Source of the DNA: an uncultured delta proteobacterium
Lineage (GTDB): Bacteria; Myxococcota_A; Polyangia; Polyangiales; Polyangiaceae
Length of the DNA: 64,000 nt
Reading direction: 5' to 3'
NCBI GenBank assembly: GCA_963763745.1
Contig: CAVXQJ010000016.1
Span: 193,029 to 257,028 of the forward strand
In this document: positions 14,458-58,464 of the stretch, in pieces
Position numbering within the stretch: position 1 is the first letter of the stretch
Layout: each line of letters begins with the position of its first letter
The notes under the pieces: generated by a model
The model's input: the letters and a program-made list of their open reading frames with translations, nothing else
Told to the model about the DNA's origin: nothing
The model's database searches: none
Position numbers and translations under genes: made by a program

Positions 14458-14580
14458 TCGCGTGAGCGATCTTCCCGACCGTACGCGTGAAGCGCTCGAA
14501 AGCGCACGCAAGAAGAAGGTGAGCTACGCCGTTCGCCTCGTTCGCGCCCGATGGCCGCACCGTCGCGGTCGAGGCGAAAC
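14458..14580 (+). pseudogene. Truncated duplicate of the TraB/GumN-family gene 5' end (about 88% identical to 16047-16170)
   Basis: gtgagcgatcttcccgaccgtacgcgtgaagcgctcgaaagcgcacgcaagaagaaggtgagctacgccgttcgcctcgttcgcgc… versus 16047…. It encodes VSDLPDRTREALESARKKKVSYAVRLVRA and then breaks off after a 2-bp deletion. Confidence 0.5.
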
Positions 14581-16046: not shown

Positions 16047-16798
16047 TCTTCGTGAGTGATCTTCCCAACCGTGCGCGTGAAGCGCTCGAACGCGCACGCA
16101 AGAAGAAGGCGAGCTACGCCGTTCGCCTCGTCCGCGCGCCCGATGGCCGCATCGTCGCGGTCCTCGGCGAAGCGCACATGAAGCTCGCCGAGGCGGCCGC
16201 GATCGGACGCGCCGTCGTCGAGGCGTTCGAGCTGCGCGGCGTCGAGACGTTCCAGCGCAAACAGGTCTTTCTCGGCCGCACGCTCGGCGTTCTCATCCAC
16301 GCGCCGCGCGTTCTTCTGCGCATCCTCTCGTTCGGCAAGATCCAAGGAAGCACCATCACCGAAGCGAAGCAGCTTCCGTCCGGATACACGGTGGAGCTCG
16401 AGCGAACCAAGCGCGTCCCGTTCGGTCTTCACGTGACGTCGCTCTACATGACCGTGTTCTTCATCTTCGCGTTCCTCGGTCTGCTCCTGCCGCTGATCGC
16501 GCCGGTGCTGCCGTGGCTCGCCGCGTTCGTCATGACCGTGCTGTTCGCGTTTCAAGCGCACATGATCCTGCTCGTGCCCGCGATCCTTCTTCGCCGGTTC
16601 TCGTGGAGCTGGATGATCCATCCGTTCATGGGGATCCTCACGCTGCGCGACGAGCTCATGGCCGCCGGCACGGTGGAGATGCTCGCCGATCACAAACGCG
16701 AGAAAGCGGCGGTCGTCGTCATGGGGCGCGCACACGTGAGCGGCTACACGCGACTTCTCGTCGACAAATACGGATTCACCGCAATAGAAGAGCCCTAG
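16047..16798 (+). CDS. TraB/GumN-family protein (membrane)
   Basis: N-terminal SYAVRLVRAPDGRIVAVLGEAHM and C-terminal AVVVMGRAHVSGYTRLL are TraB-family signatures, with internal TM helices. The GTG start is homologous to the 14458 fragment. Confidence 0.75.
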
Positions 16799-34341: not shown

Positions 34342-34347
34342 GGAGAA

Positions 34348-34445
34348 GGCTGCGGGCTGCGGGCTGCGGGCTACGGGCTTCGGGAAGAATGAAATCTCGA
34401 TCCTTCTTGCTCTTCCCGCGGCCCGCAGCCCGTAGCCCGCAGCCC
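34348..34445. repeat. Gene-less copy of the inverted-heptamer cassette (98-bp hairpin) between two convergent stop codons
   Basis: (GGGCTGC)3GGGCTACGGGCTTCGGG, then AAGAATGAAATCTCGATCCTTC, then the inverted arm CCCGCAGCCCGTAGCCCGCAGCCC. The loop keeps the GGGAAGAATGA…TCGCGATC start region seen at 7380-7400. Confidence 0.6.
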
Positions 34446-43469: not shown

Positions 43470-44639
43470 TCACGGAAGCGCGTCGCCGTTCCACGCGATG
43501 TCGTAGAACTGCGCGGCGACGAGATCCGAATGCTGATGTCGCTTCACGTGCAGCCGATGTCGAAACGACAGCACGTGCGTGTACGAGAGAATTTGATACA
43601 GCCCCGGAAGCGGATCGCCTTTCTGCGTGTAGATGTCTTGACCGCCCGAGAGGATCGCTTCCACGTCAGCGGGGATTTCGCGCCAGTCGCGGAACATGTC
43701 GCGGACGAGCGCGATGGCGATCTGTTTGTGGACGCCTGCAGGCACGACGTGAGGCGCGCCATCGCCCGGATGAAGCACGGCGTCCACGAGCGGCTTCGCG
43801 TCCATCATGAACACGCCGGCCGTCGGTCGCGGATTGCACTCGACAAGGACGAGACCGTTCGGTGTGCGAATGTAGTCGAGCGATATCTGACCGGTGTAGC
43901 CGAGGTGCTCGGTGAAGCGCTCGGTGATCGCGAGCGACTCGGGCTCGAGGACGGACTCGAACGTGATCCCGCCTGCGTGCTCGATCGTCTTCGGGTGAAC
44001 GTACGCGACGTGCGCGACGACGCGACCATGGTGCGCCACGCTGAAGCTGCACACGTCTTCGCCATGAACGAAGCGCTGCACGATCCACGGACGCTCCGGC
44101 GTGGCGGCGCACGCTTCGATCGCGAGCTGTCCGGCGAGCGGCCCCACGTTGGTGAGGAGCTCGACGCCGCCGCGCGAGTACGCGGGGCGCGCGAGGTACT
44201 CGGAGAGCTCGGCGGTCGCGCGCGCGAGCTCTTCCGTGCTCGTGGCGATGCGCGTCTCCGGCACCGCGAGGCCGAGCGCGCGCGCGAGCGCGACGAACGT
44301 GCGCTTGTCGTGCAACCGCGCGAGCGTGTCGAACGACGGACAAAACACCTTCGCCGGCAAAAGCGAGCTCGCGTGCTTCGCGATGAGAAAAACTTCCTCG
44401 AAGCTCGGCACGATCCAGTCGATCCGCTGGTCGCGGACGATCGCACCGATGTCCGCGAGGAAACGCATGGGCTCGTACGCGGGCGACGACGTGATGAACG
44501 CTTCCCTCACGTACTTCGAGTGACTTCCCGGAGACGTGCGAAACGTGTCGGTCGCGTAGACGTCGTGCCCCTCGACTCCGAACTTGCGGATCTCGTCGAG
44601 CGCATGCGGCAGGCGCGAGCTGGTAATGAGTATCCTCAT
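43470..44639 (-). CDS. ATP-grasp domain protein (carboxylate-amine ligase)
   Basis: ATP-grasp fold signature (…IVQRFVHGEDVCSFSVAHHGRVVAHVAYV…SLDYIRTPNGLVLVECNPRPTAG…). Directly downstream of the dehydrogenase. Confidence 0.8.
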   Translation of the reverse strand: MRILITSSRLPHALDEIRKFGVEGHDVYATDTFRTSPGSHSKYVREAFITSSPAYEPMRFLADIGAIVRDQRIDWIVPSFEEVFLIAKHASSLLPAKVFCPSFDTLARLHDKRTFVALARALGLAVPETRIATSTEELARATAELSEYLARPAYSRGGVELLTNVGPLAGQLAIEACAATPERPWIVQRFVHGEDVCSFSVAHHGRVVAHVAYVHPKTIEHAGGITFESVLEPESLAITERFTEHLGYTGQISLDYIRTPNGLVLVECNPRPTAGVFMMDAKPLVDAVLHPGDGAPHVVPAGVHKQIAIALVRDMFRDWREIPADVEAILSGGQDIYTQKGDPLPGLYQILSYTHVLSFRHRLHVKRHQHSDLVAAQFYDIAWNGDALP

Positions 44640-44644
44640 GTCTC

Positions 44645-46185
44645 GTGGAGGAAGTTATGGCTGCGATGCGCGCGCGCAACGCGCGTGAGTTCGATGACCT
44701 CGTGATCGGCGCCGGAATGGGCGGCCTCACCGTCGGCGCGCTGCTCGCCGCGCAAGGCCGGCGCGTTCTCGTCGTGGAGGCGCACGATGTGCCGGGCGGC
44801 TACGCGCACACGTTCGAGGTCGGCAAGTACCGCTTCTGCGCGCAAGTGCATTACATCTTCGGCTGCGGCGAAGGCGAGCCCGTTCACGAGCTCCTCCGGC
44901 GCACCGGTCTCGACGAGCGCGTGCGCTTCCACCGGCTCGATCCCGAAGGCTTCGATCACGTCGTCGTCGCCGGCAATCGTTACCGCATACCGAACGGTCT
45001 CGAAAATTCCGCGACGGGCTCATTCGTGCATTCCCGCACGCGGGCGATCCGATCCGCGGATACTTCGACGTCGTGATGGCGATCGGCCGCGAGCTCGACA
45101 AGCTCCCCGAAATCGATCGGCTTGCGCGATCTCCTGACGGCTCCTTTTCGGTTTTCGCATTTGCTTCGTTACAAGAGTTGGACGCTCGGTCGCTTGTACG
45201 AGTCGCTCCGCATGCCGCCGCGTCTGCGAACGATCCTCGCGGGGCAGTCGGGCGATTACCTGCTCCCACCGAGCGAAGTGTCGCTCTTGCTCCACGTCGC
45301 GCTCGTGCGCGCCTACGATCGCGGCGCCTACTATCCCGAAAAGCACTACGTGCATTTCATCGACAGCATCGCGTCGTACTTGCGATCGCGCCCGGGATGC
45401 GAGCTCCTGCTCGAGACCGAGGTCGAGTCGATCCTCAGCGACGGCAAGCGCGTCACGGGCGTACGCACCAAGCGCGGGGAGACCTTCACGGCGCGCGCGC
45501 TACATCTCGAACGTCGACCCGCATCGCACCGCGAGCCTCCTCGGCGCGCGGCGCTGGGCAGCGGAAGCTCTCGTACGAATACTCCTCGGGCAACATCACG
45601 CTCTACTTGGGTATTCGCGACATCGACTTACGCGATTACGGCTTTGGCTCGTACAACGTTTGGCATTATCCGCACGACGACATCGACGCGATGTACCGGC
45701 GCCAGCGCGACGCGCGCGATTTCCGCGAGCCGTGGCTGTTCATGTCGACGCCCACGCTCCACACGACGCACCCGGGCTTGTGCCCAGAGGGGCACCAAAT
45801 CCTCGAGCTCGCGACGAGCGCGGACCACGCGTGGTTCAAGGCGCTCCGCGATCGCGACCGCCGAGCCTACAACGCCGAGAAAAAGCGGCTTCGCGAGCGA
45901 ATGATCGCCGTCGTCGAACGACACTACGTTCCCAAGCTGAGCAAGCACCTCGCGATGCAGGTGATGGGAACGCCCGCCACCAACGAGCGCTTCTGCAACG
46001 CGCCATTCGGCAACGCATATGGATCGGCGCTCACGCCCGAGAACGTGAGCCGTCGCGTTCCGAGCGCGACCCCGCTCCGCAACTTGTGGCTCGTCAATGC
46101 GACGGCGGGATTCCCGAGCATCGGCGGAACCGTGAAGGCGGGTATCGATCTCGTCGATGGCCCGCTGCGCGCACTCGGTGCATGA
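44645..46185 (+). pseudogene. NAD(P)/FAD-dependent oxidoreductase, phytoene-desaturase (CrtI) family, 3 frameshifts
   Basis: VIGAGMGGLTVGALLA Rossmann N-terminus in frame 2. Later segments alternate between frames 1, 2 and 1 (ORFs 44645..45076, 45073.., 45122..45904, tail to 46185). Total about 513 aa. Confidence 0.75.
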
Positions 46186-46222
46186 GAGCGGTGGTCTCGG
46201 TTTTGCAATTTGTTTGGGTGTC

Positions 46223-46633: not shown

Positions 46634-46639
46634 CCGGCG

Positions 46640-47932
46640 CTACGGAAGCACGATGCGCCGAATGGCGCCGTCGCCGCGACCGAAGAGCAGCGCGCCGTTC
46701 GCGAGCGAGAAATCCGTGTAGGGGATTCCCTCGTTCGCGACGAGCGTGCTCGGCGTCGTCCCGCATCCGGCCGCGCGCGCGCAATAACGAATCGCGGGGG
46801 CGGAATCGAAATAGACGTTCGTGCCGTCCGATGCGACGTGACCCGACGAGGTCGCCAAAGCAAACACGGCGATGAACCCACCGCCACCCTTCGGTGCGAC
46901 GAGAACGCTGCGCGGTCCACCGACGAGGATGTCTTGCCCGGTGAAGTACACGTTGAATCCATCGACCGCGAGGCCACCGCAGTCGACGTATCTCGCGGAG
47001 ACGCCCGTCACGATCTCCTCTTGGCCTTGTGGCGAGAGCTTCGCGCGTCGCACGCCGCCGTTCTTATCCACGTTGTCGTTCGTGTACGTGCCCGAGTTCA
47101 ACCAATAGAGATATCCGCTCTCGACGAGGAGCGCGCCGGGTGCGGGTTGATTGACGGTGCTGACGAGCGCGCCGGTGTCGTCGAAGATGCCGCCACCGGT
47201 CTGCGCGTCGTACGGCGTCTCGACCGCGTAGAACCCGCGCGAGCTCGCGAAGTCCGCGGCGACCGGGTTGGCGTTGACGCTCAACGCACCGTGCACGACG
47301 TGAGACGAGCTGCACGCGGGCAGATCGCACGCGCGGAGCTCGCGACCTCCCGACCCGTCATCGCAGAGGAAGATCACTTGCGTTTGCGACACGGCGAGTC
47401 CGTGACAACCCTCTAGCGCAGGACGCGAATAGCTCGTTTGCAGATCGCTCCCATCGAGCGCCGCGCTGAACAAACCGCCGCCATTGTTGTTATCGCCATA
47501 TCGCGTCCAAAAGACGCGAGCGCTCGACGCGCCAACGGCGCTTACCGTCGTTTGACCCGTTGCAATGGTATAGGGCTGACATTGTCCTTGGGAGCACGTG
47601 CCCGATCCGCACGAGTGACCGCACGCGCCGCAGCTCGCGACATCGACTTGCGTGTCGGTGCACGCGCCGTTGCATGCGGTCGTCGAGCCCGGACAAGCGC
47701 AGACTTGTCCATTGCAAGTCGCGTTGCCGGTGCAAGCGCCCGCACAGCATGCTTCACCGGGCGCGCCGCACGACGGAGCCTCCGGCGCACTCGCGTCGGC
47801 TTGAACGGGCGCGTCCGTGCTCGCGTCGGCGCCGGTGCTCGGCGAGTCACCGACACACGCGATGAGTGAAGAAGCCGCAAAGGATGCAGCAAGGAGCAAA
47901 GAGCGAAAGTCCACCACGACCTCCATTCGCAT
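46640..47932 (-). CDS. Cys-rich / beta-propeller lipoprotein, hypothetical
   Basis: Signal peptide plus SLIACVG lipobox, a Cys-rich module (…CGACGHSCGSGTCSQGQC…), then Gly-rich propeller-like repeats. Confidence 0.7.
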   Translation of the reverse strand: MRMEVVVDFRSLLLAASFAASSLIACVGDSPSTGADASTDAPVQADASAPEAPSCGAPGEACCAGACTGNATCNGQVCACPGSTTACNGACTDTQVDVASCGACGHSCGSGTCSQGQCQPYTIATGQTTVSAVGASSARVFWTRYGDNNNGGGLFSAALDGSDLQTSYSRPALEGCHGLAVSQTQVIFLCDDGSGGRELRACDLPACSSSHVVHGALSVNANPVAADFASSRGFYAVETPYDAQTGGGIFDDTGALVSTVNQPAPGALLVESGYLYWLNSGTYTNDNVDKNGGVRRAKLSPQGQEEIVTGVSARYVDCGGLAVDGFNVYFTGQDILVGGPRSVLVAPKGGGGFIAVFALATSSGHVASDGTNVYFDSAPAIRYCARAAGCGTTPSTLVANEGIPYTDFSLANGALLFGRGDGAIRRIVLP

Positions 47933-48022
47933 AGATGCCTACGGCCGCATCGCCGTTTCGGTCTTCGTCGCTCACTGCATACAATGCGCGAATGGCGTGT
48001 AGGCTCGTGTCGGGTTCGTGCT

Positions 48023-48805
48023 CTAGTCCTCGAGACCCGAGAACGCGCGGAGCGCGCGTGCATCCGCGGTGCGCTCGCCGGCCGCGTCGCGCAACATCAT
48101 CGACGACACCGCGAGCGCGCTCGGCGTGCGCGCGAGCGTCCACACCGAGAAAAGCGGTGGCTCGTGCTCGCGCGGGATCACCTCGCATCGCGCGCGCACG
48201 AAGAGCTTCGCGCTCGAGGCCGCGGTCTCGACGCGCGCGTTCGCGAGCGCCGCGCCGCACATCACGACGATTCCGTCACCCGCCAAGACGCGGCTCGCCG
48301 TCTCGACGTAGGCCTCGACGCCGCCGCGGTACTCGATGCGCGCGTAAGCGCGCTGCTCGTCCATCGCGTCGGACGCCGCGCCCGGCGGAAAGTACGGCGG
48401 TGTTCCCGTCACGAGATCGAAATCGCGCCCGAGCTTCTCGATCGCGTCTCGCTCGCGCAGATCCCCGTGATGAATCGCGACGCGTTGCGCGACGCCCGCG
48501 CGTGCGACGTTGCGCCGAAGCAGCTCGAACGACATCTCCTGCGCCTCGATCCCGACGAAGTTCGCGTCGGTCATCTTCCACGCGAGGTGAAGCAGCACCG
48601 ACCCGAGCCCGCACCCGAGATCGAGGACGCGCTTCGCGGAGGGCCGCGCGTGCCACGCAATGAACGCCGTTGCGAGATCGTCCGACGAAAACCGATGCCC
48701 CTTGGCGCGCTGATACACGCGAAAATCGCGGGTGAGCGCGTCGTCGGTGAGCGGGCCGAGGATCGGATCGGAGAGCGGATTCACGCTGTGCGTTCCATAA
48801 CGCAT
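48023..48805 (-). CDS. SAM-dependent methyltransferase (N6-adenine/TrmN6-like, TPPYF motif)
   Basis: DLGCGLGSVLL (motif I) and TGTPPYF (motif IV). Confidence 0.85.
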   Translation of the reverse strand: MRYGTHSVNPLSDPILGPLTDDALTRDFRVYQRAKGHRFSSDDLATAFIAWHARPSAKRVLDLGCGLGSVLLHLAWKMTDANFVGIEAQEMSFELLRRNVARAGVAQRVAIHHGDLRERDAIEKLGRDFDLVTGTPPYFPPGAASDAMDEQRAYARIEYRGGVEAYVETASRVLAGDGIVVMCGAALANARVETAASSAKLFVRARCEVIPREHEPPLFSVWTLARTPSALAVSSMMLRDAAGERTADARALRAFSGLED

Positions 48806-48849
48806 AAAGCAGCATTCACTTCAACGGATCGAGTCTTGATAGGTCGTGG
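48806..48849 (-). promoter_or_regulatory. Conserved leader motif, copy 1, immediately upstream of the methyltransferase start codon
   Basis: taaagcagcattcacttcaacggatcgagtcttgat… is about 87% identical to 52385-52430. Both are in the same orientation relative to the downstream gene. Confidence 0.4.
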
Positions 48850-49025
48850 CTATCGACCGGCGGCAGCGAGACTGCGCGGCCGGGCCGCAGCTGGACCTTC
48901 GCCAGTTGATCACGGCGGCCAAAGCCTGGCGTCGTCGAAGTCGGGTGAATGTCCAGCGCCGGCCTCGCCGGTTCTTCACGCTGCCGCATATCGGCGTCCA
49001 ACCCTGGACGAGACAATCAGTTTAG

Positions 49026-50594
49026 GTGATCTTCGGAGTACGTTGCGAAGACATGCGTCCGGGTGACGTAGCCGACATCATCCTCTCGTTCGTAGCGACG
49101 ATCGTGTTTCTCGCCATCGCGGCGCTCGCCGTCGCGCGCGGTCGACGCGATCCGCTCGGGTGGCAGCTCGCGCTCTTGTGCGGCGACTTGTTCGTCTACG
49201 ACATGTCCGAGGTCGCGCATTCGCACGCGCGCAGCCCGCTCATCGGCGGCGCGCAGAGCCAACCGGGTTGGGACTGGATCAACAACGCGTCGGCTTCGCT
49301 CGCGCCCGTGCTCTTCTATCACCTCGTCGTTGCGTTCGTCGGCCAGCGGAAGTCGCTGAAAACTCCGGTGCGCGTCGCGTACGTGTATTTCGGCGCGCTC
49401 GCCGCGATGTGCCTCTCGCCGGTGGTCGTGCGCTACGCGTCGCCTGCGTCGTACGCGCGAGCGAACGAGTTCTCGGGCGGCGCGGCGTGGGCGATCGCGA
49501 TGCTCGTCGGGCTCCTCGTCGTCGGCGTGCACGGCTCCATCATCCTCACGCGCCACTTCCGCGGGACGTATCCCGAGGAGCGCGCGCGCACGCGCCTCGT
49601 GATCGCGACGGTGTTCATCGCGGGCATCGCGAACGCGACCGATCTCGTGTACCTCGCGGGCGCGTCGTGGTCGCCGCACGTGGGCTCGTGGGGTCTCGTC
49701 GTCAGCGCGCTCGTTCTCGCTGCTGCGGCGCTGCGCCTTCGCATGTTCGAGAAGCTCTCCGTTCTCACCGCCGTCAACGCCGCGGTGATCGCGGTCACCG
49801 TCGTCATCATCGAGGTCGCGGTGTTTCGTTATGTCGGCGATCGCGCGGCGATCGCCATTGCATCGACCGTGGTGATCGCGCTCGCGGCGCTCCTCGCGGG
49901 GCGCTTCGTGATCACCGAGTATGCCAAGGAGCGCGAACGCATCTTGGCACACGCGACGCTCGGCCGGATGGCGGCGCACATGGCGCACGACATCAAGAAC
50001 CCGCTCGCGACGATTCGCGGCGCAGCGCAGTTCCTCTCCGCCGAGCGCTCCGCTGGCCGTTCGATCGACGCGCAAGACGAAGTGCTCGATCGCTTGGTGT
50101 CGCACTGCGATCGCATCACGCGCGTCGTCGATCAGTACCATCGCATCGGCCAATCGAAACCGCTGCTCGACAAGACCGACGTCAACGCGGCGACGCGTCA
50201 AGCGCTCCATGTCGTCGCCGAAGGCCACATCGACTCGAAGCTCGGCGAGCCGCTTCCGTCGTGCGACACCGATCGCGACTTGCTCGTCATCGCGCTCGAG
50301 AGCGTTCTTCGCAACGCGTGCGAGGCCGCGCCGGGACACGTCGTTCACGTGGAGACCGGCGCCTTCGAGGATCGCGAGCGCAAGTGGGTGTTCATCTCGA
50401 TCCGCGACGAGGGTCCCGGCATGACGCGCCGCACGCTCGACCGCGCCCTCGAAGGTTTCTTCACGACGAAGGCGCAGGGCTCGGGCCTCGGTCTCGCGTT
50501 CGTGAAACGCGTCGTCGAAGCCCATCGCGGCAGGCTCGACATCGCATCGCGCGAAGGCGCGGGTACGACCGTGCGCATCGAGCTCCGCGCGTGA
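49026..50594 (+). CDS. Sensor histidine kinase with a multi-TM N-terminal domain
   Basis: Six to seven TM helices, then H-box HDIKNPLATIRG and the HATPase G1/G2 boxes (GSGLGLAFV). Possible alternative ATG at 49053. Confidence 0.85.
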   Translation: MIFGVRCEDMRPGDVADIILSFVATIVFLAIAALAVARGRRDPLGWQLALLCGDLFVYDMSEVAHSHARSPLIGGAQSQPGWDWINNASASLAPVLFYHLVVAFVGQRKSLKTPVRVAYVYFGALAAMCLSPVVVRYASPASYARANEFSGGAAWAIAMLVGLLVVGVHGSIILTRHFRGTYPEERARTRLVIATVFIAGIANATDLVYLAGASWSPHVGSWGLVVSALVLAAAALRLRMFEKLSVLTAVNAAVIAVTVVIIEVAVFRYVGDRAAIAIASTVVIALAALLAGRFVITEYAKERERILAHATLGRMAAHMAHDIKNPLATIRGAAQFLSAERSAGRSIDAQDEVLDRLVSHCDRITRVVDQYHRIGQSKPLLDKTDVNAATRQALHVVAEGHIDSKLGEPLPSCDTDRDLLVIALESVLRNACEAAPGHVVHVETGAFEDRERKWVFISIRDEGPGMTRRTLDRALEGFFTTKAQGSGLGLAFVKRVVEAHRGRLDIASREGAGTTVRIELRA

Positions 50595-50606
50595 TCACAT
50601 GCTCGA

Positions 50607-51365
50607 TCACCAAACGAACGGAACGAGCACTCGTCGGCGCGCTGGGTAGTCGCCGAACGTCCGGCGATACCAAGCGTGGTGCGCGGCCGCGCGCGGAGCG
50701 AGGTTCGCGATCGTGTAGAACGCGAACGCCGCGCCGCCGGACGACCAGCTCGCGATCGCCCAGCCGATCCATTCGATGATCTCTCCGAGGTAGTTCGGGC
50801 AAGTCACCCAGTCATAGAGGCCGCCGCGCGGAATCTTGTATGCGGTTTCGCCGGGCGCGCGCAGCGCGAAGAGCCTTCGATCCGCGTCGATGTTGATCGT
50901 CATCCCGATCGCGAAGAGGAGCGCGCCGATCGCGAAGGGCGCGCCGAAAATCCACCCGCGCGGATAATCGCCGAGGTCGGAGATGAACGACGCGTTCATC
51001 ACCGAGTTCGTGACGTTGAATATCAACGCGAGCACGACGATGACGACGGGCATCCGCTTGCCTTTCGTCTTCATGCGAAGCGGATAGATGAGCGTTCGAT
51101 GCGCGTAGTGCGCCGCCCACATCGCGTAGAGCGCGAGCGGCGCGATCTCGCCGTGCTTTTTGCCCGAGAAGAACAAAACGGAGAACAAGACGAGCGACGG
51201 GCTCTCCATGATCATCCAGCCGAGCTTGTCGGGCACCGTCGGTCCCCACGAGGCGCGCACGTACCGCCCATAAGGCGCGACGACGAAGAGAAGCGCGACG
51301 AACGTGAAGACGCCCGCGGCGACGACGCCGAACGCGAGCGCGTCGTAGGTGCCGCGGCTGATCAA
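50607..51365 (-). CDS. 3-oxo-5-alpha-steroid 4-dehydrogenase / DUF1295-family membrane protein
   Basis: Real 255-aa tail of the artefactual ORF with the …IPRGGLYDWVTCPNYLGEIIEWIGWAI motif. The TTG start overlaps the gpsA stop (TTGA). Confidence 0.75.
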   Translation of the reverse strand: MISRGTYDALAFGVVAAGVFTFVALLFVVAPYGRYVRASWGPTVPDKLGWMIMESPSLVLFSVLFFSGKKHGEIAPLALYAMWAAHYAHRTLIYPLRMKTKGKRMPVVIVVLALIFNVTNSVMNASFISDLGDYPRGWIFGAPFAIGALLFAIGMTINIDADRRLFALRAPGETAYKIPRGGLYDWVTCPNYLGEIIEWIGWAIASWSSGGAAFAFYTIANLAPRAAAHHAWYRRTFGDYPARRRVLVPFVW

Positions 51366-52375
51366 CGAATCCCCTGGAGCTCGTGCTTGAACTCGCGCGT
51401 GACGAGCAGCCTCAGCGCTTCGAGCAAGGGTCTGCCGCGATGGAGCACGAAGTGAACTTGCTCGATGATGGGCGCGTCGATGCCGAGCTTCTGCGCGAGG
51501 TCGTACGCGGCGTGCGCCGTGTAGAATCCCTCCGCGACCGTCCGCTGCGTCGCGAGGTACGTCGCGGCGTCGATGCCCTTCGCGACTTCGGTGCCGAGCT
51601 GCCTGTTTCGCGAGAGCTCTCCGGTGCATGTGAGAAAGAGATCGCCGACGCCCGCCAAGCCGAGAAACGTCAGCGGGTCCGCGCCGAGCGCGACGCCGAA
51701 GCGCGTGATCTCCGCGAGGCCGCGCGTGAGGAGCGCGGCGCGCGCGTTCAATCCGAGCTGGAGTGCGTCGCATGCGCCCGCGGCGATCGCGATGACGTTC
51801 TTCAGCGCGCCGGCGACCTCGACGCCGACCGGATCGCCGCTCGCGTAAATGCGAAACGTCGGCGCGTGAAGCAAGCGTTGGATCGGCTCGCACGCGGCCA
51901 TCGCCTTCGATGCCGCGACGATGTCGCACGGGAGGCCCTTCGCGACTTCTTTGGCGAACGTCGGCCCGGAGAGAAACGCCATGCGCTCCGCTGGCACGTC
52001 GGGGAGCACCTCCGCGAGGACGTCGCTCATCAGCTTGAGGCTCGACTCCTCGATCCCCTTCGACGCGACGGCGACGAGCGCGTCTTTCGCGATGAGCGGA
52101 GCGGTCGATCGCGCGACGTCGCGCAAGTACTTCGACGGCGGCACGAGGATCACGAGCTCGGCGTCGCGTAACGCTTCGGCGAAATCGAGCGTGACCGTGA
52201 CCGCGTCGGGAAGCGCGAAGCCCGGGAGGAACGGCGTGTTCTCGCGAGCGCTCTCTGCCGATTGGAACACTTCGCGCTCGCGCGCCCACAGACGAACCGT
52301 GTGACCCATGCGAGCCGCATGAATGGCAAGCGCGGTTCCCCACGCACCCGCGCCGACGACAGCGATGATGGCCAT
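51362..52375 (-). CDS. gpsA: NAD(P)H-dependent glycerol-3-phosphate dehydrogenase
   Basis: MAIIAVVGAGAWGTALA…typical GpsA across the full length. Confidence 0.9.
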   Translation of the reverse strand: MAIIAVVGAGAWGTALAIHAARMGHTVRLWAREREVFQSAESARENTPFLPGFALPDAVTVTLDFAEALRDAELVILVPPSKYLRDVARSTAPLIAKDALVAVASKGIEESSLKLMSDVLAEVLPDVPAERMAFLSGPTFAKEVAKGLPCDIVAASKAMAACEPIQRLLHAPTFRIYASGDPVGVEVAGALKNVIAIAAGACDALQLGLNARAALLTRGLAEITRFGVALGADPLTFLGLAGVGDLFLTCTGELSRNRQLGTEVAKGIDAATYLATQRTVAEGFYTAHAAYDLAQKLGIDAPIIEQVHFVLHRGRPLLEALRLLVTREFKHELQGIR

Positions 52376-52384
52376 CGCGCGAGA

Positions 52385-52430
52385 CTAAAGCAGCATTCAC
52401 TTGAACGGATCGAGTGTTGACGCGTCGCGG
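52385..52430 (-). promoter_or_regulatory. Conserved leader motif, copy 2, upstream of gpsA
   Basis: ctaaagcagcattcacttgaacggatcgagtgttgacgcgtcgcgg matches 48806-48849. Confidence 0.4.
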
Positions 52431-55180
52431 TGCACGGTCGGGATCGTGAAGAAGAAAGACGCTCCTTTGCCCGGCACGCTCTCCACCCAAATGCGACCGC
52501 CGTGAGCTTCGATGACTCCTTTCGCGATCGGGAGACCGAGGCCGGCGCCGTGTCTATGCGCCTTCGTGCCCTGCCAGAATCTCTCGAACACGTGCGGGAG
52601 CTCCTCCTCGGGGATCCCGGCGCCGCTGTCTTTCACCCAGAAGAGCACCTCGCTTTCGCGCGGCGCCGCGCCGACTTCGATGCGCGCGCCTGGCTCGCTG
52701 AACTTGAGCGCGTTGCCGATCAGATTTTCGAAAACCTGAAGCAGGCGATCGCGATCCGCGAAGACGTCGGGTAGCTCGCTCGTGACGTCGAGCCGAAGCT
52801 CGACGGTGGAAGACGCCGCGAGCTGCTTCTGCGCGTCGACGGATGACGCGACGATCTCTCGCGCGGCAACGCGCGCGGGCTCGACGGACAAGCGGCCCGC
52901 ATCCATGCGCGTCACGTCGAGCAGATCTTGAATGAGCCGATTCATGCGTTTGGCCGATCGCTCGATCACTTCGGCGGGCGTGTGTCCGGGCTCCGCTGCG
53001 ATGCCGCGCCGGAGAAGGTTGGCGTGCAGGATGATGTTGTTGAGCGGGTTGCGAAGATCGTGAGCGACGACGCCGAGGACGTTGTCGCGCGCCTGCGCCG
53101 CGCGCTTCGCTGCGCGATAGAGGCGTGCGTTGTCGATCGAAAGCGCCGCGCGCCGAGCGAGCTCCTCGGCCAAGCGAACATCCGCTGCGCCATACACGCG
53201 AGAAGGCGTCGAGGATATGAACGTGATCGCCCCCAAGAGCTTCTCGTTCGACACGAGCGGCACCGCCACCATCGACCGAATCTCGGCAGCGCGAAGGGCT
53301 CGTAAGTGCTCTTCGCTCTGAGCAAACGATGCGACCTCTTGCTCCGTCGGACGTTCCATGAGGAGCGACTGCCGAGTCTCGAAGACGGGGCGCACCAAGT
53401 AAGGACCGTTTCGGTCGAGCGGAAGGTGCGTCAGGAGATCGCAAAGCCACGCCTTCGATGGATCACGGGCCACGACTTTGAGCGGTCTGACCTCTTCGTC
53501 GTCGAGGACGACTTCGACGATGCAGAGGTCGGCGAGATCGCGCACCGCAAGCTCGGCGATCCTCGTGAGGGTTGCTTCGAAAGCGAGCGTGCTCGCAAGG
53601 ACCGGCCCGACGTCGGCCAAGAACTTCTGCTCCTTCTCGAGTCGGTTCTGCTCCGTGACGTCGCGAAGGTCGACCGTGAGGACTTTCTTGCCGCCCACGT
53701 CGAGCATGGAGATCGCGGCATCGGCGGGGAACTCCTCGCCGCCTTTTCGCAGACCGATGATCGTCGAGTGCCGTTCGCCCATGCGGCGCGCGTGCTGCCG
53801 GCCGGACGCGAAACGAGCCACGTGCTCGCGATGGACGGCTCGAAACCGCTCGGGAACGAGCATGTCGAGCGACGCTCCGATCGCTTCGGCTTGCGTGTAA
53901 CCGAAGATCTTCTCGGCACCCGTGTTGAACAGCGTGATGCGTTGGTCCTCGTCGACGGAGATGATCGCGTCGGCGGAGATGGAGAGAATGCCCGACGACT
54001 TCGCTTCGGCGAGGCGGAGCTCTTCTTCGAGCCGCTTTCGCTCCGTGATGTCTTCCATCTCGGAAATGAAGTAGCGCGGCACGCCGTCGTGACCGCGAAG
54101 AGTCGAGACGCTGAGCATCACGTCGACGATCGTTCCGTCCTTGCGGATGTAGCGCTTGCTCCGCTGGTAGCGTGGGATCTCGTCGCGCGCGAGCTGCATC
54201 GACATCGCGACATCGGCGGCTACGTCATCCGGATGCGTGATCGCTTGGAACGTGAGCGCCATGAGCTCGTCCGCCGTGTAGCCGAGGATCTCGCAGAGCG
54301 CGCGATTGACGCGAACGAAGCGGCCGTCGAGCGCGACGAGCGCCATCCCGATCGGCGCCTCGTCGATCGTGAGCCGGAAGCGCTCCTCGGACTCCTCGCG
54401 CTCGCGAGCGATGCGTCGCGGCTCGGTGATGTCGCGCGTGATCGTCCCCATCCCGAGCACGCGACCGCTCTCGGGATCGCGAATCATGAAGTGGTCGTCG
54501 GAGACGGGGATGGCTTCCTCCGTTTTCCAATTTCTGAAATAGGTCTCGCCCGACCATTGTCCACGCTCCAACATCGCCTTGACGATCACGTCCGCCGCGA
54601 ACGCGCGCTCGCTCGGCGGGTAGTAGTCGGGGATTTGCGTCTTTTCGATCGGATAGTCCGCTGATAACCCCACCATGCGGCGACCGCCCGCGTTGATGTA
54701 AACCGGTTTTCCGTTCGGGTCGGCGATGCCGATGAAGTCGGAGGAGTTGTCGAGCAGCGCCGTGAAGATCTTCTTCTCGTCCGCAGCGCGCTTGATCGCC
54801 GAGACGTCGGCGACATGGACGAAGAACCCATGAACCACGCCATCCACGACATCGGGGATGTACGTCGCAAGGCTGTGTCGCGAGGGGCCGCCGGCTGGAT
54901 CGGGGATCTCGCGTTCGAATTCTTGCGCATGACCGCGCAAGGCTTGCTCGATGTGGGGGAGGTTGAGCCGATACAGCGCGGGCCCGAGCAGCTCGCTGAT
55001 GTGCTTGCCGAGCAGCGCATCGGGAGACACGCCGAACCACACTTCGTATGCACGGTTTGCGAACCGGCAATGTTGCGTGGAATCCCAGTACGCGACCATT
55101 GCGGGAAGCGAGTCGACGAGCCGATTCAGCAACTCGTTTTCAGCGATCACCGCTGAGATCGAAGCACGCTGCGTGCCCAC
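52397..55180 (-). CDS. Multi-PAS/GAF sensor histidine kinase
   Basis: Several PAS repeats, a GAF-like region, then H-box HDLRNPLNNI and HATPase (GAGLGLPIAKG). The N-terminal part of the listed ORF is artefact. Start is at about 55180 (GTG) or 55099 (ATG). Confidence 0.85.
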   Translation of the reverse strand: MGTQRASISAVIAENELLNRLVDSLPAMVAYWDSTQHCRFANRAYEVWFGVSPDALLGKHISELLGPALYRLNLPHIEQALRGHAQEFEREIPDPAGGPSRHSLATYIPDVVDGVVHGFFVHVADVSAIKRAADEKKIFTALLDNSSDFIGIADPNGKPVYINAGGRRMVGLSADYPIEKTQIPDYYPPSERAFAADVIVKAMLERGQWSGETYFRNWKTEEAIPVSDDHFMIRDPESGRVLGMGTITRDITEPRRIAREREESEERFRLTIDEAPIGMALVALDGRFVRVNRALCEILGYTADELMALTFQAITHPDDVAADVAMSMQLARDEIPRYQRSKRYIRKDGTIVDVMLSVSTLRGHDGVPRYFISEMEDITERKRLEEELRLAEAKSSGILSISADAIISVDEDQRITLFNTGAEKIFGYTQAEAIGASLDMLVPERFRAVHREHVARFASGRQHARRMGERHSTIIGLRKGGEEFPADAAISMLDVGGKKVLTVDLRDVTEQNRLEKEQKFLADVGPVLASTLAFEATLTRIAELAVRDLADLCIVEVVLDDEEVRPLKVVARDPSKAWLCDLLTHLPLDRNGPYLVRPVFETRQSLLMERPTEQEVASFAQSEEHLRALRAAEIRSMVAVPLVSNEKLLGAITFISSTPSRVYGAADVRLAEELARRAALSIDNARLYRAAKRAAQARDNVLGVVAHDLRNPLNNIILHANLLRRGIAAEPGHTPAEVIERSAKRMNRLIQDLLDVTRMDAGRLSVEPARVAAREIVASSVDAQKQLAASSTVELRLDVTSELPDVFADRDRLLQVFENLIGNALKFSEPGARIEVGAAPRESEVLFWVKDSGAGIPEEELPHVFERFWQGTKAHRHGAGLGLPIAKGVIEAHGGRIWVESVPGKGASFFFTIPTVHRDASTLDPFK

Positions 55181-55240
55181 CCGTGTCGCAGCGTTTGCGT
55201 AAGGACCGGCGGCACATTCGATGCGTGGTTCGAATTCGAA

Positions 55241-56827
55241 ATGAACCACCAGCGCGTTCTCGTCGTCGAAGACGACGCGGATCTTCGGACGAGCGTCACG
55301 CAGCTCTTGTCCGCGGATGGGATGGACATGGTCCAGGCGGGGTCGGGAAAAGAAGCGCTCGCCACGTTGCTTTCGAACGCATTCGATCTGGTCGTCACCG
55401 ACGTGATGATGCCTCCTCCGCTCGGCGTCGAGGTCGCAGCGCTCGCGCGCACCGCCGGCGATGGCGTTCCGATCCTCGTGATGACGGGCCTGCGCGACGA
55501 GTGGGTGACGGACGCGGTCGGCAAGCTGCAGCGCGCCGATCTGTTGCACAAACCGTTTTCTGCCGACGAGCTCCTCGCGCACGTGCACGCGCTGCTCGAA
55601 CGCAAGCAAGTGGACGAGGCCGCGGCTTCCGAGCGCCAAGTCGGGCTCGCACGCGCGACGACCAGCGGTGCACACGTGTTTCCTCCAGCGATCGTGCCCA
55701 TCCTCCGCGAGAGATTCGCGGACGACATTCCATGCATCAGCGGCGTCGATGACGTCGTGCTCGCGGAGCTGCTCTCGGTCGTGTTCTTCGCGGGGCTCGT
55801 CGCCGAAGAAGGCGAGCACAAACCGGTGCGGGTCGTCTTCGTCGGCACGGCGCCGTCCGTCGTCGACGAGGAGACGTCGTCTCCGCTCTATCGTTGGAGC
55901 ACGCTTCGATTCCGCGTCGCTCGTCCGTTCTCCGTTGGAGAGCTCGTCAAGCTCGCGACTGCGACGGGCAGCGAGCGTGTCTTCACGCAGGTTTGCTACG
56001 ACGGCGACGACCTCGTCGTCACGGGTCTCGCGCGCGAAGGGATCAACGTCGAAGGCGATGCGTTTCTCAAGGTCGTGGTCCCGCAGCCAGGCGCTCTATC
56101 CATCCGCGTCGGACGACGGCACTTGCTCGAGTACGAGCACGGTCACGTGCAGGCGCCGAGCGGAGACGTCGTCTTCTCGCAAGGGCCCGTGCGAAGAGCG
56201 CTCGAGGAAGTGGCCGTCGCGGTCGGCGTGGAGAACGCGGTCGATGCATACTTGGACGCCGTGCGCGCGCTCGTCGGCGAGATGACGGGCCACGGCGCGG
56301 GCGGCATCATGGTGTTCACGCCCGACCCGCAATCCGTCCTGCCGACCGACGCGCCGTACTTGACGTTTCCCGAGGTGTCGCTCGCCGCGATCATCCAACG
56401 CCTCCACACGCAAGTCGATCACGTCATGCGCGTCACGTTCTTCGCCGAGCTCGAGCGCACGATCGAAGAGCTCGGCGCGCTCTCGGCGCTCGATGAAGCC
56501 GTGGTGTTCGATCGCTCGCTCGCCGTCGAAGGATTCGGCGTCGTCTTGCCCATCCAAAGCCACGAGCCGCTCGTCATCTTCGAGGCACACGACGCCGAGG
56601 CTCACGACGTGCGGCCGTTCGACATCGGCACGCGCGGAGCGCGGCATCGCGCTGCGGCAACGTACGCGATGAATCACCCGCGCACCGTCGTGTTCGTCGC
56701 ATCGGAGGACGGGCCCGTCGGGTGTTTCTTCCGCGCGCCGGGTTGGAAGCACGTCATCCTCTGGCCGTTCCACGCGATGGACGCGCGTCATTCCCAACGC
56801 ATGACGGCGTTCATTCCGCGACTCTGA
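55241..56827 (+). CDS. Response regulator with receiver domain plus a ~400-aa uncharacterized C-terminal domain
   Basis: MNHQRVLVVEDDADLR…LVVTDVMMP… is a REC domain. The remainder is protein-like but unrecognized. Divergent from the PAS kinase. Confidence 0.8.
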   Translation: MNHQRVLVVEDDADLRTSVTQLLSADGMDMVQAGSGKEALATLLSNAFDLVVTDVMMPPPLGVEVAALARTAGDGVPILVMTGLRDEWVTDAVGKLQRADLLHKPFSADELLAHVHALLERKQVDEAAASERQVGLARATTSGAHVFPPAIVPILRERFADDIPCISGVDDVVLAELLSVVFFAGLVAEEGEHKPVRVVFVGTAPSVVDEETSSPLYRWSTLRFRVARPFSVGELVKLATATGSERVFTQVCYDGDDLVVTGLAREGINVEGDAFLKVVVPQPGALSIRVGRRHLLEYEHGHVQAPSGDVVFSQGPVRRALEEVAVAVGVENAVDAYLDAVRALVGEMTGHGAGGIMVFTPDPQSVLPTDAPYLTFPEVSLAAIIQRLHTQVDHVMRVTFFAELERTIEELGALSALDEAVVFDRSLAVEGFGVVLPIQSHEPLVIFEAHDAEAHDVRPFDIGTRGARHRAAATYAMNHPRTVVFVASEDGPVGCFFRAPGWKHVILWPFHAMDARHSQRMTAFIPRL

Positions 56828-57735: not shown

Positions 57736-58464
57736 GTGATCGTTCAAACCAGCAGCGTCGTCATCGAGACGAGCACCGGCGCGATGCTCACGCACGTTCA
57801 TCGTCCGGTTGCGGACGGCAAGCGACCGGGGATCGTTCTCTTCTCGGAGATCTTCCAGCAGACGGCGCCCATCGCGCGCATGGCGGCGATGTTCGCGGGG
57901 CATGGGTTCGTCGTCGCGGTGCCGGAGATATTTCACGAGCTCGAGCCGGCGGGGACCGTCCTCGCATACGACGCGCGCGGGACGGACGCGGGAAACCGCC
58001 ACAAAACCGAGAAGCCCATCAGCGCGTTCGACGACGACGCACGCGCCGCGATCGACCATCTGCTCTCGCGCGACGACGCGAGCGGCGCGATCGGAGCGTT
58101 CGGCGTTTGCATCGGCGGGCACCTCGCGTTTCGGTGCGCGTTCGATCCGCGCGTTCGCGCGGCGGCGTGTTTCTACGCGACCGACTTGCACAAGCGTTCG
58201 CTCGGAAAAGGCGGCGACGATTCGCTGTCGCGCGCCGCGGACATTCGCGGCGAGCTCATGATGGTGTGGGGTCGGCAAGATCCCCACGTCGACGACGAAG
58301 GCCGTCTCGCGATCGAGGCCGCGCTGCGCACCGCGAAAACCAAGTACACGTGGCACGAGCTCAACGCAGCACACGCGTTCCTCCGCGACGAGGGCCCGCG
58401 CTACGACCCTGCGCTCGCGCTGCTCTCGTACCGCATGTCGCTCGATCTCTTCGCGCGGATGTGA
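57736..58464 (+). CDS. Dienelactone hydrolase family protein
   Basis: …GIVLFSEIFQ…AFGVCIGGHLAF… shows the alpha/beta-hydrolase DLH pattern. GTG start. Confidence 0.8.
   Translation: MIVQTSSVVIETSTGAMLTHVHRPVADGKRPGIVLFSEIFQQTAPIARMAAMFAGHGFVVAVPEIFHELEPAGTVLAYDARGTDAGNRHKTEKPISAFDDDARAAIDHLLSRDDASGAIGAFGVCIGGHLAFRCAFDPRVRAAACFYATDLHKRSLGKGGDDSLSRAADIRGELMMVWGRQDPHVDDEGRLAIEAALRTAKTKYTWHELNAAHAFLRDEGPRYDPALALLSYRMSLDLFARM

What the first reader, a model, noticed from the sequence alone, without database searches (positions are those of the whole stretch)
48806..52430. A 45-bp conserved motif sits in the same orientation just upstream of two unrelated genes, the methyltransferase and gpsA
48806-48849 reads taaagcagcattcacttcaacggatcgagtcttgataggtcgtgg. 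52385-52430 reads ctaaagcagcattcacttgaacggatcgagtgttgacgcgtcgcgg. About 40 of 46 positions match.

Both copies lie 0-10 nt upstream of minus-strand start codons. On the coding strand they read …ACTCGATCCGTT(G/C)AAGTGAATGCTGCTTTA-ATG.

The spacing is too tight for a standard -35/-10 pair. The motif may be a shared 5'-leader RNA element, a regulator-binding site, or a short repeat family.
Basis: seen in the sequence. Interest (0 to 1): 0.5.

Follow-up and report, generated by a model that had tools for sequence, protein, structure and literature searches.

The report
Copied gpsA promoter segment before trmN6
A 35-45-base stretch that forms the upstream part of the predicted promoter of the lipid-synthesis gene gpsA occurs a second time 3.6 kb away, in front of a tRNA-methyltransferase gene that a sensor-kinase gene separates from the gpsA operon; it looks like a small, lineage-specific case of promoter reuse, not a new kind of element.

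Summary
The repeat is real. The two minus-strand copies are 48849->48805 and 52430->52386. They match at 39/45 positions, at 33/35 in a stringent local alignment and at 29/30 in the core. There are no other copies in the window.

Copy 2 covers -55 to -11 relative to the gpsA ATG. Its last two bases (TA) begin the hexamer TAGTCT, which ends 6 nt before the ATG. In this window TANNNT followed 6-8 nt later by a long-ORF start occurs 13 times against about 2.3 expected. This is the signature of leaderless mRNAs, so copy 2 is most likely gpsA promoter DNA.

In the closest relative, gpsA, a steroid-dehydrogenase-like gene and the TrmN6-like methyltransferase gene (trmN6) are one tight operon. Here a 1.8 kb block separates trmN6 from the other two genes. 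The block holds an opposite-strand histidine kinase, a spacer and copy 1.

Copy 1 is therefore a lineage-specific duplicate of the promoter's upstream half, placed before the detached gene. Whether it is active is unproven: its -10-like hexamer, TATGCG, lacks the final T.

I found no RNA structure, no Rfam hit, no conservation in orthologous leaders and no match in public collections. This is a sub-threshold two-member "putative mobile promoter" pair. Interest is low to moderate.

The parts
52386..52430 (-). Repeat copy 2 (M2). It covers -55 to -11 relative to the gpsA ATG. It overlaps the last 10 codons and the TGA stop (52399-52397) of the PAS/GAF histidine kinase. The robust part is 52386-52420.
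48805..48849 (-). Repeat copy 1 (M1), in the non-coding divergent intergenic region between HK2 and trmN6. It ends on the A of the annotated ATG, with 20 nt between its end and the homology-supported GTG. The robust part is 48805-48839.
   Evidence: (no coding-type GC3 in the spacer)
52382..52387 (-). TAGTCT, the predicted -10 hexamer of a leaderless gpsA promoter. Its first two bases (TA) are the last two bases of copy 2, and 6 nt separate it from the ATG.
   Evidence: TANNNT at gap 6-8: 13 observed vs about 2.3 expected, Poisson P 9e-7; literature PMC3160421
48801..48806 (-). TATGCG, a -10-like hexamer in the same register after copy 1. It lacks the final T, and TANNNG shows no start-linked enrichment in this window.
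51362..52375 (-). gpsA, NAD(P)H-dependent glycerol-3-phosphate dehydrogenase, 337 aa.
   Evidence: (PF01210 and PF07479, E about 1e-50)
50607..51365 (-). 3-oxo-5-alpha-steroid 4-dehydrogenase-like (DUF1295-like) membrane protein gene, 252 aa. Its start overlaps the gpsA stop (ATGA).
   Evidence: PF02544, E 1.7e-51; 83% aa identity to the L010 gene
48785..50606 (.). A 1,822-nt block that is absent between the steroid-dehydrogenase-like gene and trmN6 in the nearest relative L010. It holds HK2, a spacer, copy 1 and 20 nt, and has GTGA on both sides (50610-50607 and 48784-48781).
49053..50594 (+). HK2, a membrane histidine kinase (HisKA + HATPase_c) on the opposite strand. It has its own leaderless-type signal, TACGTT (49039-49044), 8 nt before ATG 49053.
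48023..48805 (-). TrmN6-like tRNA1(Val) A37-N6 methyltransferase gene (trmN6). It is annotated as 260 aa from ATG 48805, and homology favours GTG 48784 (253 aa).
52397..55150 (-). PAS/GAF sensor histidine kinase, 917 aa in the source annotation. Its non-conserved C-terminal tail runs into copy 2.

Best explanation
The motif is promoter DNA. Copy 2 is the -55 to -11 part of the promoter of a leaderless gpsA mRNA. Its terminal TA begins the -10 hexamer TAGTCT, and transcription is predicted to start at or next to the A of the ATG.

In the ancestor shared with the nearest relative, gpsA, a steroid-dehydrogenase-like gene and trmN6 formed one translationally coupled operon. In this genome a 1.8 kb block carrying an opposite-strand histidine kinase separates trmN6 from the other two. 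The end of that block next to trmN6 is a copy of the gpsA promoter's upstream half (copy 1).

The most likely reading is promoter reuse. Copy 1, with the adjoining TATGCG, would give the detached trmN6 its own transcription start about 10 nt before the GTG start. It could also preserve any regulator site shared with gpsA.

Shown: the repeat, its position and the gene-order difference. Strongly inferred: gpsA is leaderless and copy 2 is promoter DNA. Inferred only: copy 1 is active, and the direction of copying.
For: (1) The repeat is real and exclusive: 39/45 and 33/35 identity, E 8.7e-8, only two copies in 64 kb.

(2) Leaderless signature. TANNNT followed at 6-8 nt by an ATG or GTG opening a long, high-GC3 ORF occurs 13 times against about 2.3 expected. 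Eight control hexamer patterns show little or no excess (P 9e-7). gpsA is one of the 13 (TAGTCT, 6 nt, ATG). TANNNT about 12 nt before the start is the published marker of leaderless genes in high-GC bacteria (PMC3160421). TA is the rarest dinucleotide here at 0.9%, yet gpsA of L001, L002 and L014 also carries a TA hexamer 4-10 nt before the ATG.

(3) The core is 43% GC in a 65% GC window, which puts it in the lowest 0.8% of 30-nt windows.

(4) Gene order. The L010 contig shares 85-88% nt identity with the window. It has the gpsA 3' end, the steroid-dehydrogenase-like gene and trmN6 contiguous, with a GTGA stop/start overlap. The window has 1,822 extra nt there.

(5) trmN6 normally relies on an upstream gene. 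In L010, L011, L019, L021 and L022 it is coupled to a same-strand neighbour by an overlap or a gap of 4 nt or less. Where it stands alone (L017) it has TAGCAT, 8 nt, ATG. Here it faces a 220-nt divergent intergenic region and so needs its own start.

(6) The copies differ at 2/35 sites, whereas 4-fold sites differ by 25-29% between the window and L010. P(2 or fewer differences) is 0.0007-0.003 if the copies are as old as the split. The duplication is therefore younger than the split, or the copies are constrained or homogenised.

(7) The six mismatches cluster in the 5' third (P 0.018).

(8) If copy 1 acts as a promoter, the annotated ATG 48805 lies inside the -10. The homology-favoured GTG 48784 would then be the start, which makes the two lines of evidence coherent.
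Against: There are no expression data. The simple sigma-70 scan finds nothing at either copy, and the motif has no recognisable -35.

The hexamer after copy 1, TATGCG, lacks the T that is nearly invariant in -10 elements. TANNNG is not enriched before starts in this window. The duplication breakpoint falls inside the -10, so the copy is not a complete promoter.

Polarity is unresolved. GTGA flanks the block on both sides. A microhomology deletion in the L010 lineage would give the same picture as an insertion here, and operon birth by deletion is documented (PMC1480536). The outgroups have other gene orders.

The gpsA 5' flank of the L010 organism is not on its contig, so I cannot tell whether the motif is ancestral at gpsA. 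With only two copies there is no statistical test of association with gene starts.
Confidence: 0.5

Rival explanations
1. Neutral rearrangement relic. The 35-45 nt were copied from 3.6 kb away as filler or by template switching. Alternatively they were left over from a tandem duplication followed by loss, when the histidine-kinase block and trmN6 were joined. On this reading copy 1 does nothing, and trmN6 is transcribed from elsewhere in the 220-nt spacer or by read-through.
For: Copy 1 lacks a canonical -10: it has TATGCG, and TANNNG is not enriched. The breakpoint lies inside the -10. The low divergence (2/35) fits a recent neutral event.

The genome holds another small fragment duplication, 112 nt at 92% with a frameshift, at 14461-14570 / 16051-16162. 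The region has several other indels relative to L010. Adjacency to the trmN6 start follows automatically for anything at the end of the block.
Against: Of all nearby DNA, the copied piece is exactly the promoter-proximal segment of the first gene of the same former operon. It is in the same orientation and keeps the TA register in front of a gene that needs a new start.

The mismatches avoid the promoter-proximal 30 nt (P 0.018). The only TANNNT on the trmN6 strand in the spacer (TAAACT, about 49024-49019) is about 235 nt upstream (read).
Confidence: 0.3
2. Two visible members of a genome-wide short dispersed repeat family (REP-, MITE- or PMP-like) whose other copies lie outside the 64 kb window.
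For: Two-copy to many-copy upstream repeat families are common in bacteria (PMC3488235). Copy 2 contains an imperfect 7-bp inverted repeat, CACTTGA-N5-TCGAGTG. The rest of the 607-kb source contig could not be examined.
Against: There are only two copies in 64 kb even when 9 mismatches in 30 are allowed. Both lie within 3.6 kb, next to genes of one ancestral operon.

The inverted repeat is broken in copy 1. I saw no terminal inverted repeats and no target duplications around the copies. The exact 21-mer has zero hits in 185,579 species genomes, JGI metagenomes and viral contigs. Nothing similar occurs in 236 kb of relatives' loci.
Confidence: 0.1
3. A shared structured 5'-leader or cis-regulatory RNA (riboswitch-like element or sRNA target) that controls both genes after transcription.
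For: The sequence has the same orientation and lies close to both starts. If trmN6 is transcribed from far upstream, copy 1 would be in its leader.
Against: Folding z-scores are -0.30 and +0.51 on the coding strand, and the two predicted structures differ. Rfam gives no match at the copies even at E up to 10.

The leaderless signature puts copy 2 upstream of the gpsA transcript. The motif is not conserved in the orthologous leaders, so no covariance model can be built.
Confidence: 0.03
4. Coding similarity: a conserved C-terminal peptide (...S-x-LDP-x-K*) shared by the PAS kinase and a small ORF upstream of trmN6. Both reading frames stop at the same TGA inside the motif.
For: The same frame and the same stop occur in both copies.
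Against: The 66-codon ORF before copy 1 has GC3 of 0.70, against 0.80-0.87 for real genes here. The differences between the copies are mostly non-synonymous (read).

Identity continues 14 nt past the stop. The C-terminal tails of 58 PAS-kinase homologues are unconserved, and none ends in LDPFK.
Confidence: 0.02

Closest known systems
Putative Mobile Promoters (PMPs), or 'promoter propagation' (Matus-Garcia, Nijveen & van Passel 2012, PMC3488235)
   Same: Highly similar non-coding DNA lies directly upstream of non-homologous genes within one genome. Most PMP families (68%) also have just two members, with mean identity 92%. They are interpreted as reuse of a promoter separate from its gene.
   Different: This pair is shorter than the operational threshold (35-45 nt against 50 nt or more). 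One copy overlaps the 3' end of a coding sequence. The copy is only the upstream half of the promoter. Unlike generic PMPs, the two downstream genes here are former operon partners.
Leaderless-gene promoters of high-GC bacteria (TANNNT about 12 nt before the start codon; Zheng et al. 2011, PMC3160421)
   Same: gpsA has TAGTCT ending 6 nt before the ATG and no Shine-Dalgarno sequence. The same layout recurs at 13 genes in the window.
   Different: The pattern was described mainly for Actinobacteria and Deinococcus-Thermus, and this is a Polyangiaceae-like myxobacterial MAG. The repeat is the promoter's upstream part (positions -55 to -11), not the whole promoter: it carries only the first two bases of the -10 signal. 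Copy 1 does not meet the TANNNT rule.
Operon death by insertion and operon birth by deletion (Price, Arkin & Alm 2006, PMC1480536)
   Same: A tight operon in one lineage corresponds to the same genes separated by an intervening gene in a close relative.
   Different: That work does not describe the detached gene receiving a copy of the operon's own promoter segment. The direction of change here (insertion or deletion) is unresolved.
REP / MITE-type short dispersed repeats
   Same: It is a short non-coding repeat near gene ends, with an imperfect internal inverted repeat in one copy.
   Different: Only two linked copies are seen, the palindrome is not conserved, and there are no terminal inverted repeats or target duplications.

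Membership tests
Putative Mobile Promoter (PMC3488235) | Homologous sequence within about 150 nt upstream of the start codons of non-homologous CDSs in one genome | tested here: met
   Both copies lie 0-20 nt from the starts of gpsA and trmN6, which share no Pfam family apart from generic NAD/SAM-fold noise.
Putative Mobile Promoter (PMC3488235) | Alignment of at least 50 nt at 80% identity or more | tested here: not met
   The alignment is 35 nt at 94%, or 45 nt at 87%. The flanks are not significant.
Putative Mobile Promoter (PMC3488235) | Upstream neighbouring CDSs do not align | tested here: inconclusive
   The upstream neighbours are the PAS kinase (same strand) and HK2 (opposite strand). 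They share only generic HisKA/HATPase similarity: 29% aa, and 71 nt at 75%.
Leaderless sigma-70-type promoter (TANNNT 6-8 nt before the start) | [quoted passage not shown] | tested here: met
   Copy 2 / gpsA: TAGTCT, 6 nt, ATG. The signal is enriched 5.7-fold in the window.
Leaderless sigma-70-type promoter (TANNNT 6-8 nt before the start) | The same feature at copy 1 / trmN6 | tested here: not met
   The hexamer is TATGCG. It ends 16 nt before GTG 48784 and overlaps the annotated ATG 48805. There is no TANNNT 6-8 nt before either start.
Leaderless sigma-70-type promoter (TANNNT 6-8 nt before the start) | A transcription start at the start codon | not testable with these tools
   This needs 5'-end mapping of RNA.
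Cis-regulatory RNA leader / riboswitch | A match to a described family, or a stable conserved fold with covariation | tested here: not met
   There is no Rfam hit at the copies. Fold z-scores are about 0 and the structures differ. There are no orthologous copies to test for covariation.
REP / MITE dispersed repeat | Many dispersed copies in the genome | not testable with these tools
   Only 64 kb of the 607-kb source contig is available. There are two copies in the window and the source is not retrievable.
REP / MITE dispersed repeat | A conserved palindrome or terminal inverted repeats, with target-site duplication | tested here: not met
   The 7-bp inverted repeat of copy 2 is broken at two pairs in copy 1 (sequences). 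I saw no flanking duplications.
Integrative-element att repeats | Direct repeats bracket a segment with an integrase, often at a tRNA 3' end | tested here: not met
   The bracketed 3.6 kb holds gpsA, the steroid-dehydrogenase-like gene and HK2 only. The only tRNA (Ala, 58077-58160) shows no significant similarity. There are no phage or plasmid matches.

The most novel reading that the evidence does not exclude
The PAS-kinase|gpsA junction differs from the gpsA upstream context in all three relatives where that flank could be read, and the HK2-block|trmN6 junction is absent from every relative examined. Both junctions carry the same 35-45 nt immediately before the conserved gene. The evidence does not exclude that this sequence is a junction or recombination module that travels with sensor-kinase gene insertions and brings a ready-made promoter half for the gene downstream. 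That would be a cassette-like way of inserting genes without silencing their neighbours.
Probability: 0.04. Interest if true: 0.7.

Novelty: new member of a known kind. Interest (0 to 1): 0.27.

Why it matters
If copy 1 is active, this is a clean natural example of how a gene cut out of an operon regains expression. It would do so by receiving a copy of the operon's own promoter segment, and could keep co-regulation with its former partners. That links two documented processes: operon break-up and promoter propagation.

The analysis also yields practical annotation points. gpsA, HK2 and at least 11 other genes in this Polyangiaceae-like MAG carry the leaderless TANNNT signature. The annotated trmN6 start is probably 7 codons too long. 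The finding does not reveal a new class of element.

Tried and rejected
- **Exact 21-mer GATCCGTTNAAGTGAATGCTGC.** No match in genome contigs, metagenome contigs or viral contigs.
- **BLAST of the 1.8 kb block.** Nothing relevant in plasmids or phages.
- **Retrieving the source genome.** Exact-protein look-ups failed for gpsA, trmN6 and P0121, so no genome-wide scan was possible.
- **Orthologous gpsA upstream regions (L001, L002, L014) and trmN6 upstream regions (L010-L013, L017-L022).** None carries the motif.
- **Covariance model.** Not built, because there are only two sequences and no orthologous copies.
- **Sigma-70 consensus and terminator scans.** Nothing at either copy or at the convergent gene ends.
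- **Sigma-54 and ECF readings.** Rejected by eye. The coding-strand motif has no GG, and candidate ECF spacings differ between the copies.
- **HK2 as a recent duplicate of the PAS kinase.** Rejected: 29% aa identity.
- **HK2 relatives for native context.** None close in JGI metagenomes. The representative library shows a full-length family but cannot show closeness or context.
- **Extending the homology to a relic of the gpsA start or of the steroid-dehydrogenase 3' end between copy 1 and trmN6.** Lenient alignments reach an ATGG, but the flank-only scores are at chance.
- **Conserved peptide reading.** Rejected.
- **Compositional sign of foreign origin for the block.** None.


Full report
**Observation**

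The two sequences exist as described. On the minus (coding) strand they read:
- copy 1, 48849->48805: CCACGACCTATCAAGACTCGATCCGTTGAAGTGAATGCTGCTTTA
- copy 2, 52430->52386: CCGCGACGCGTCAACACTCGATCCGTTCAAGTGAATGCTGCTTTA

They are identical at 39 of 45 positions. The 30-nt core differs at one base and had no match in 100 dinucleotide-preserving shuffles. A stringent local alignment keeps 35 nt at 33/35. Within the window the BLAST E-value is 8.7e-8, and the pair is one of only five significant self-similarities in the 64 kb. Neither flank adds significant similarity (p about 0.6). No third copy exists in the window, even when 9 mismatches in 30 are allowed.

**Gene map, read along the minus strand**

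| Feature | Coordinates | Evidence |
|---|---|---|
| PAS/GAF histidine kinase; its TGA stop lies inside copy 2 | 55150->52397 | |
| 10-nt gap | 52385->52376 | |
| gpsA | 52375->51362 | |
| 3-oxo-5-alpha-steroid-4-dehydrogenase-like gene; start overlaps the gpsA stop | 51365->50607 | |
| HK2, a second, unrelated histidine kinase on the plus strand | 49053..50594 | |
| about 200 nt of non-coding DNA up to the HK2 start (GC3 0.70 against 0.80-0.87 in genes) | 48850..49052 | |
| copy 1 | 48849->48805 | |
| TrmN6-like tRNA methyltransferase gene (trmN6) | to 48023 | |

The source annotation starts trmN6 at ATG 48805, giving 260 aa. Forty homologues have 5-13 residues before the conserved LG(P/E)LTDD motif. 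GTG 48784 gives 8 residues and the ATG gives 16, so GTG is the more likely start. The organism is a Polyangiaceae-like myxobacterial MAG.

**What copy 2 is**

Neither gene has a Shine-Dalgarno sequence. The last two bases of copy 2 (TA) begin the hexamer TAGTCT, which ends 6 nt before the gpsA ATG. I tested whether that layout means anything in this genome.
- Over both strands of the window there are 118 TANNNT hexamers. Thirteen are followed at 6-8 nt by an ATG or GTG that opens an ORF of at least 100 codons with GC3 of at least 0.78. The other 38 spacings average 0.76 each, so about 2.3 were expected (Poisson P 9e-7).
- Eight control hexamer patterns, including TANNNG, show little or no excess.
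- This is the published signature of leaderless genes, in which the -10 box sits about 12 nt before the start codon (PMC3160421).
- gpsA is one of the 13 genes, and so is HK2 (TACGTT, 8 nt, ATG 49053).
- TA is the rarest dinucleotide here at 0.9%. gpsA in relatives L001, L002 and L014 also has a TA hexamer 4-10 nt before the ATG.

I therefore infer that gpsA is transcribed as a leaderless or near-leaderless mRNA. Copy 2 occupies -55 to -11 of its promoter, inside the 3' end of the upstream kinase gene. The core is 43% GC in a 65% GC window, which is the lowest 0.8% of 30-nt windows. It also argues against a leader RNA, because copy 2 would not be part of the gpsA transcript.

**What copy 1 is**

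The closest available relative is a 4,088-bp Logan contig, L010. It shares 85-88% nt identity with the window, and its trmN6 protein is 92% identical over the aligned region. It carries the gpsA 3' end, the steroid-dehydrogenase-like gene and trmN6 contiguously. The stop of the middle gene overlaps the GTG start of trmN6 (TGGTGA).

The window is collinear with L010 on both sides. It has 1,822 extra nt (50606->48785) between those two genes: HK2, the spacer, copy 1 and 20 nt. GTGA lies at both edges of the block.

In other relatives trmN6 is nearly always tightly coupled to a same-strand upstream gene, although that gene varies (L011, L019, L021, L022). Where it stands alone (L017) it has its own TAGCAT, 8 nt, ATG.

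So trmN6 normally depends on an upstream gene for transcription. In this genome it has been separated from that gene. What now lies directly in front of it is a copy of the upstream half of the promoter of its former operon. Directly after copy 1 comes TATGCG, in the same register as TAGTCT. It matches the local -10 pattern (for example TATGCT at 41916) except for the last base. If it is used, transcription would start near 48794. That leaves a leader of about 10 nt before GTG 48784 and places the annotated ATG inside the -10. This is consistent with the homology-based start.

**Age and constraint**

Four-fold degenerate sites differ by 25-29% between the window and L010. The two copies differ at 2 of 35 sites, or 6 of 45. 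If the copies were as old as the species split and neutral, so few differences would be unlikely (P 0.0007-0.003 for 35 nt). Either the duplication is younger than the split, which favours an insertion in this lineage, or the copies are held similar by selection or gene conversion. The six mismatches cluster in the 5' third, at -41, -46 to -48 and -53. Only one (-28) falls in the promoter-proximal 30 nt (P 0.018, boundary chosen post hoc).

**What it is not**
- It is not a known RNA family: Rfam gives no hit at either copy at E up to 10.
- It has no stable or shared fold: z-scores range from -0.30 to +0.51, and the 7-bp hairpin of copy 2 is broken in copy 1.
- It does not match a sigma-70 consensus pair or a terminator.
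- It is not tRNA-derived or associated with an integrase.
- It has no phage or plasmid match.
- It is not conserved at orthologous positions.
- The core 21-mer is not found in GTDB species genomes or JGI metagenomes.
- The shared in-frame stop and '...LDPxK' ending are not a conserved peptide. The kinase tail is variable among 58 homologues, the ORF before copy 1 lacks coding composition, and identity continues past the stop.

**Uncertainties**

Polarity is not settled. A microhomology (GTGA) deletion in the L010 lineage would produce the same comparison, and operons are known both to die by insertion and to form by deletion (PMC1480536). The outgroups have unrelated gene orders around both genes. 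The gpsA 5' flank of the L010 organism is not available. The rest of the source genome could not be retrieved, so a wider repeat family cannot be excluded. It is made unlikely by the fact that both copies sit beside genes of one former operon.

Activity of copy 1 is the weakest link. Its hexamer lacks the final T, and TANNNG is not enriched before starts. A neutral relic of the rearrangement remains a serious rival. This genome does contain another small fragment duplication (14461-14570 / 16051-16162).

**Comparison with known systems and verdict**

The pair behaves like a two-member 'putative mobile promoter' family (PMC3488235). In that survey 68% of families have two members and mean identity is 92%. 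This pair falls below the 50-nt operational threshold and copies only half a promoter.

My estimates:

| Reading | Probability |
|---|---|
| Copy 2 is gpsA promoter DNA | about 0.75 |
| Copy 1 is a functional reuse of it | about 0.4-0.5 |
| Whole account | about 0.5 |
| Neutral relic | 0.3 |
| Dispersed repeat family | 0.1 |
| RNA leader | 0.03 |
| Coding similarity | 0.02 |
| Cassette or recombination-junction reading | about 0.04 |

This is a new member of a known kind, of modest interest.

Noticed in passing
window-wide; for example starts at 20977(+), 41916(+), 41105(-), 20901(-), 11837(-), 16052(+), 19221(+), 29677(+), 29423(-), 44645(+), 49053(+), 13344(-), 52375(-): Thirteen long high-GC3 ORFs have a TANNNT hexamer (commonly TAyGnT) ending 6-8 nt before their ATG or GTG, against about 2.3 expected. 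Leaderless mRNAs therefore seem common in this Polyangiaceae-like MAG. The paper I consulted on leaderless genes highlights mainly Actinobacteria and Deinococcus-Thermus and does not name myxobacteria in its text.
   Followed up: partly
window 7355-7766: A 23S_rRNA_IVP (four-helix-bundle) gene (ATG 7390, PF05635, E 3.5e-31) sits between inverted arrays of the heptamer GGGCTTT, about four units on each side. This is an intervening-sequence-like cassette outside any rRNA gene.
   Followed up: partly
window 34343-34449: A miniature of the same architecture: five GGGCTGC-type heptamers, the same GGGAAGAATGA junction as at 7380-7392, about 22 nt, then the inverted heptamer array. The arms are 35 nt and 89% complementary. 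It looks like an empty or decayed version of the cassette at 7355-7766.
   Followed up: partly
window 14461-14570 and 16051-16162: A 112-nt direct repeat at 92% identity, 1.59 kb apart, with two small indels. The copy at 16052 is in frame with a plus-strand ORF (to 16798) that carries a leaderless-type signal (TAAGTT, 7 nt, GTG). The copy at 14462 is frameshifted and looks like a duplicated gene-start fragment. An AraC-type regulator lies between them (15204-16031, minus strand).
   Followed up: partly
window 48781-48798 (minus strand): Between copy 1 and trmN6 lies a 5-codon mini-ORF, ATG GAA CGC ACA GCG TGA. Its stop overlaps the GTG start of trmN6 as GTGA. This is the same overlap that joins the steroid-dehydrogenase-like gene to trmN6 in L010. 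It could be chance or a relic of translational coupling.
   Followed up: partly
window 48784-48805: The source annotation starts the TrmN6-like gene at ATG 48805 (260 aa). Homologue N-termini and the promoter model both favour GTG 48784 (253 aa).
   Followed up: yes
window 55157-56827 (+): Divergent from the PAS/GAF kinase is a gene for a response-regulator receiver fused to DACNV and DAC (diadenylate-cyclase-like) domains. This suggests a two-component link to cyclic-di-AMP signalling.
   Followed up: no
window 44631-46221 and 46635-48029: Relative to contig L010 the window has a further 1.6 kb of extra DNA and a replaced segment just downstream of trmN6. The neighbourhood is a hotspot of gene-content change.
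   Followed up: no
window 35691-35785: A run of 6/12-nt tandem repeats (GACGGAGTCGGG-like units) reported by the repeat finder.
   Followed up: no
window 50595-50606: The convergent steroid-dehydrogenase-like gene and HK2 end only 12 nt apart, around a TGATCA palindrome. No terminator-like hairpin was detected, so their transcripts may overlap.
   Followed up: partly
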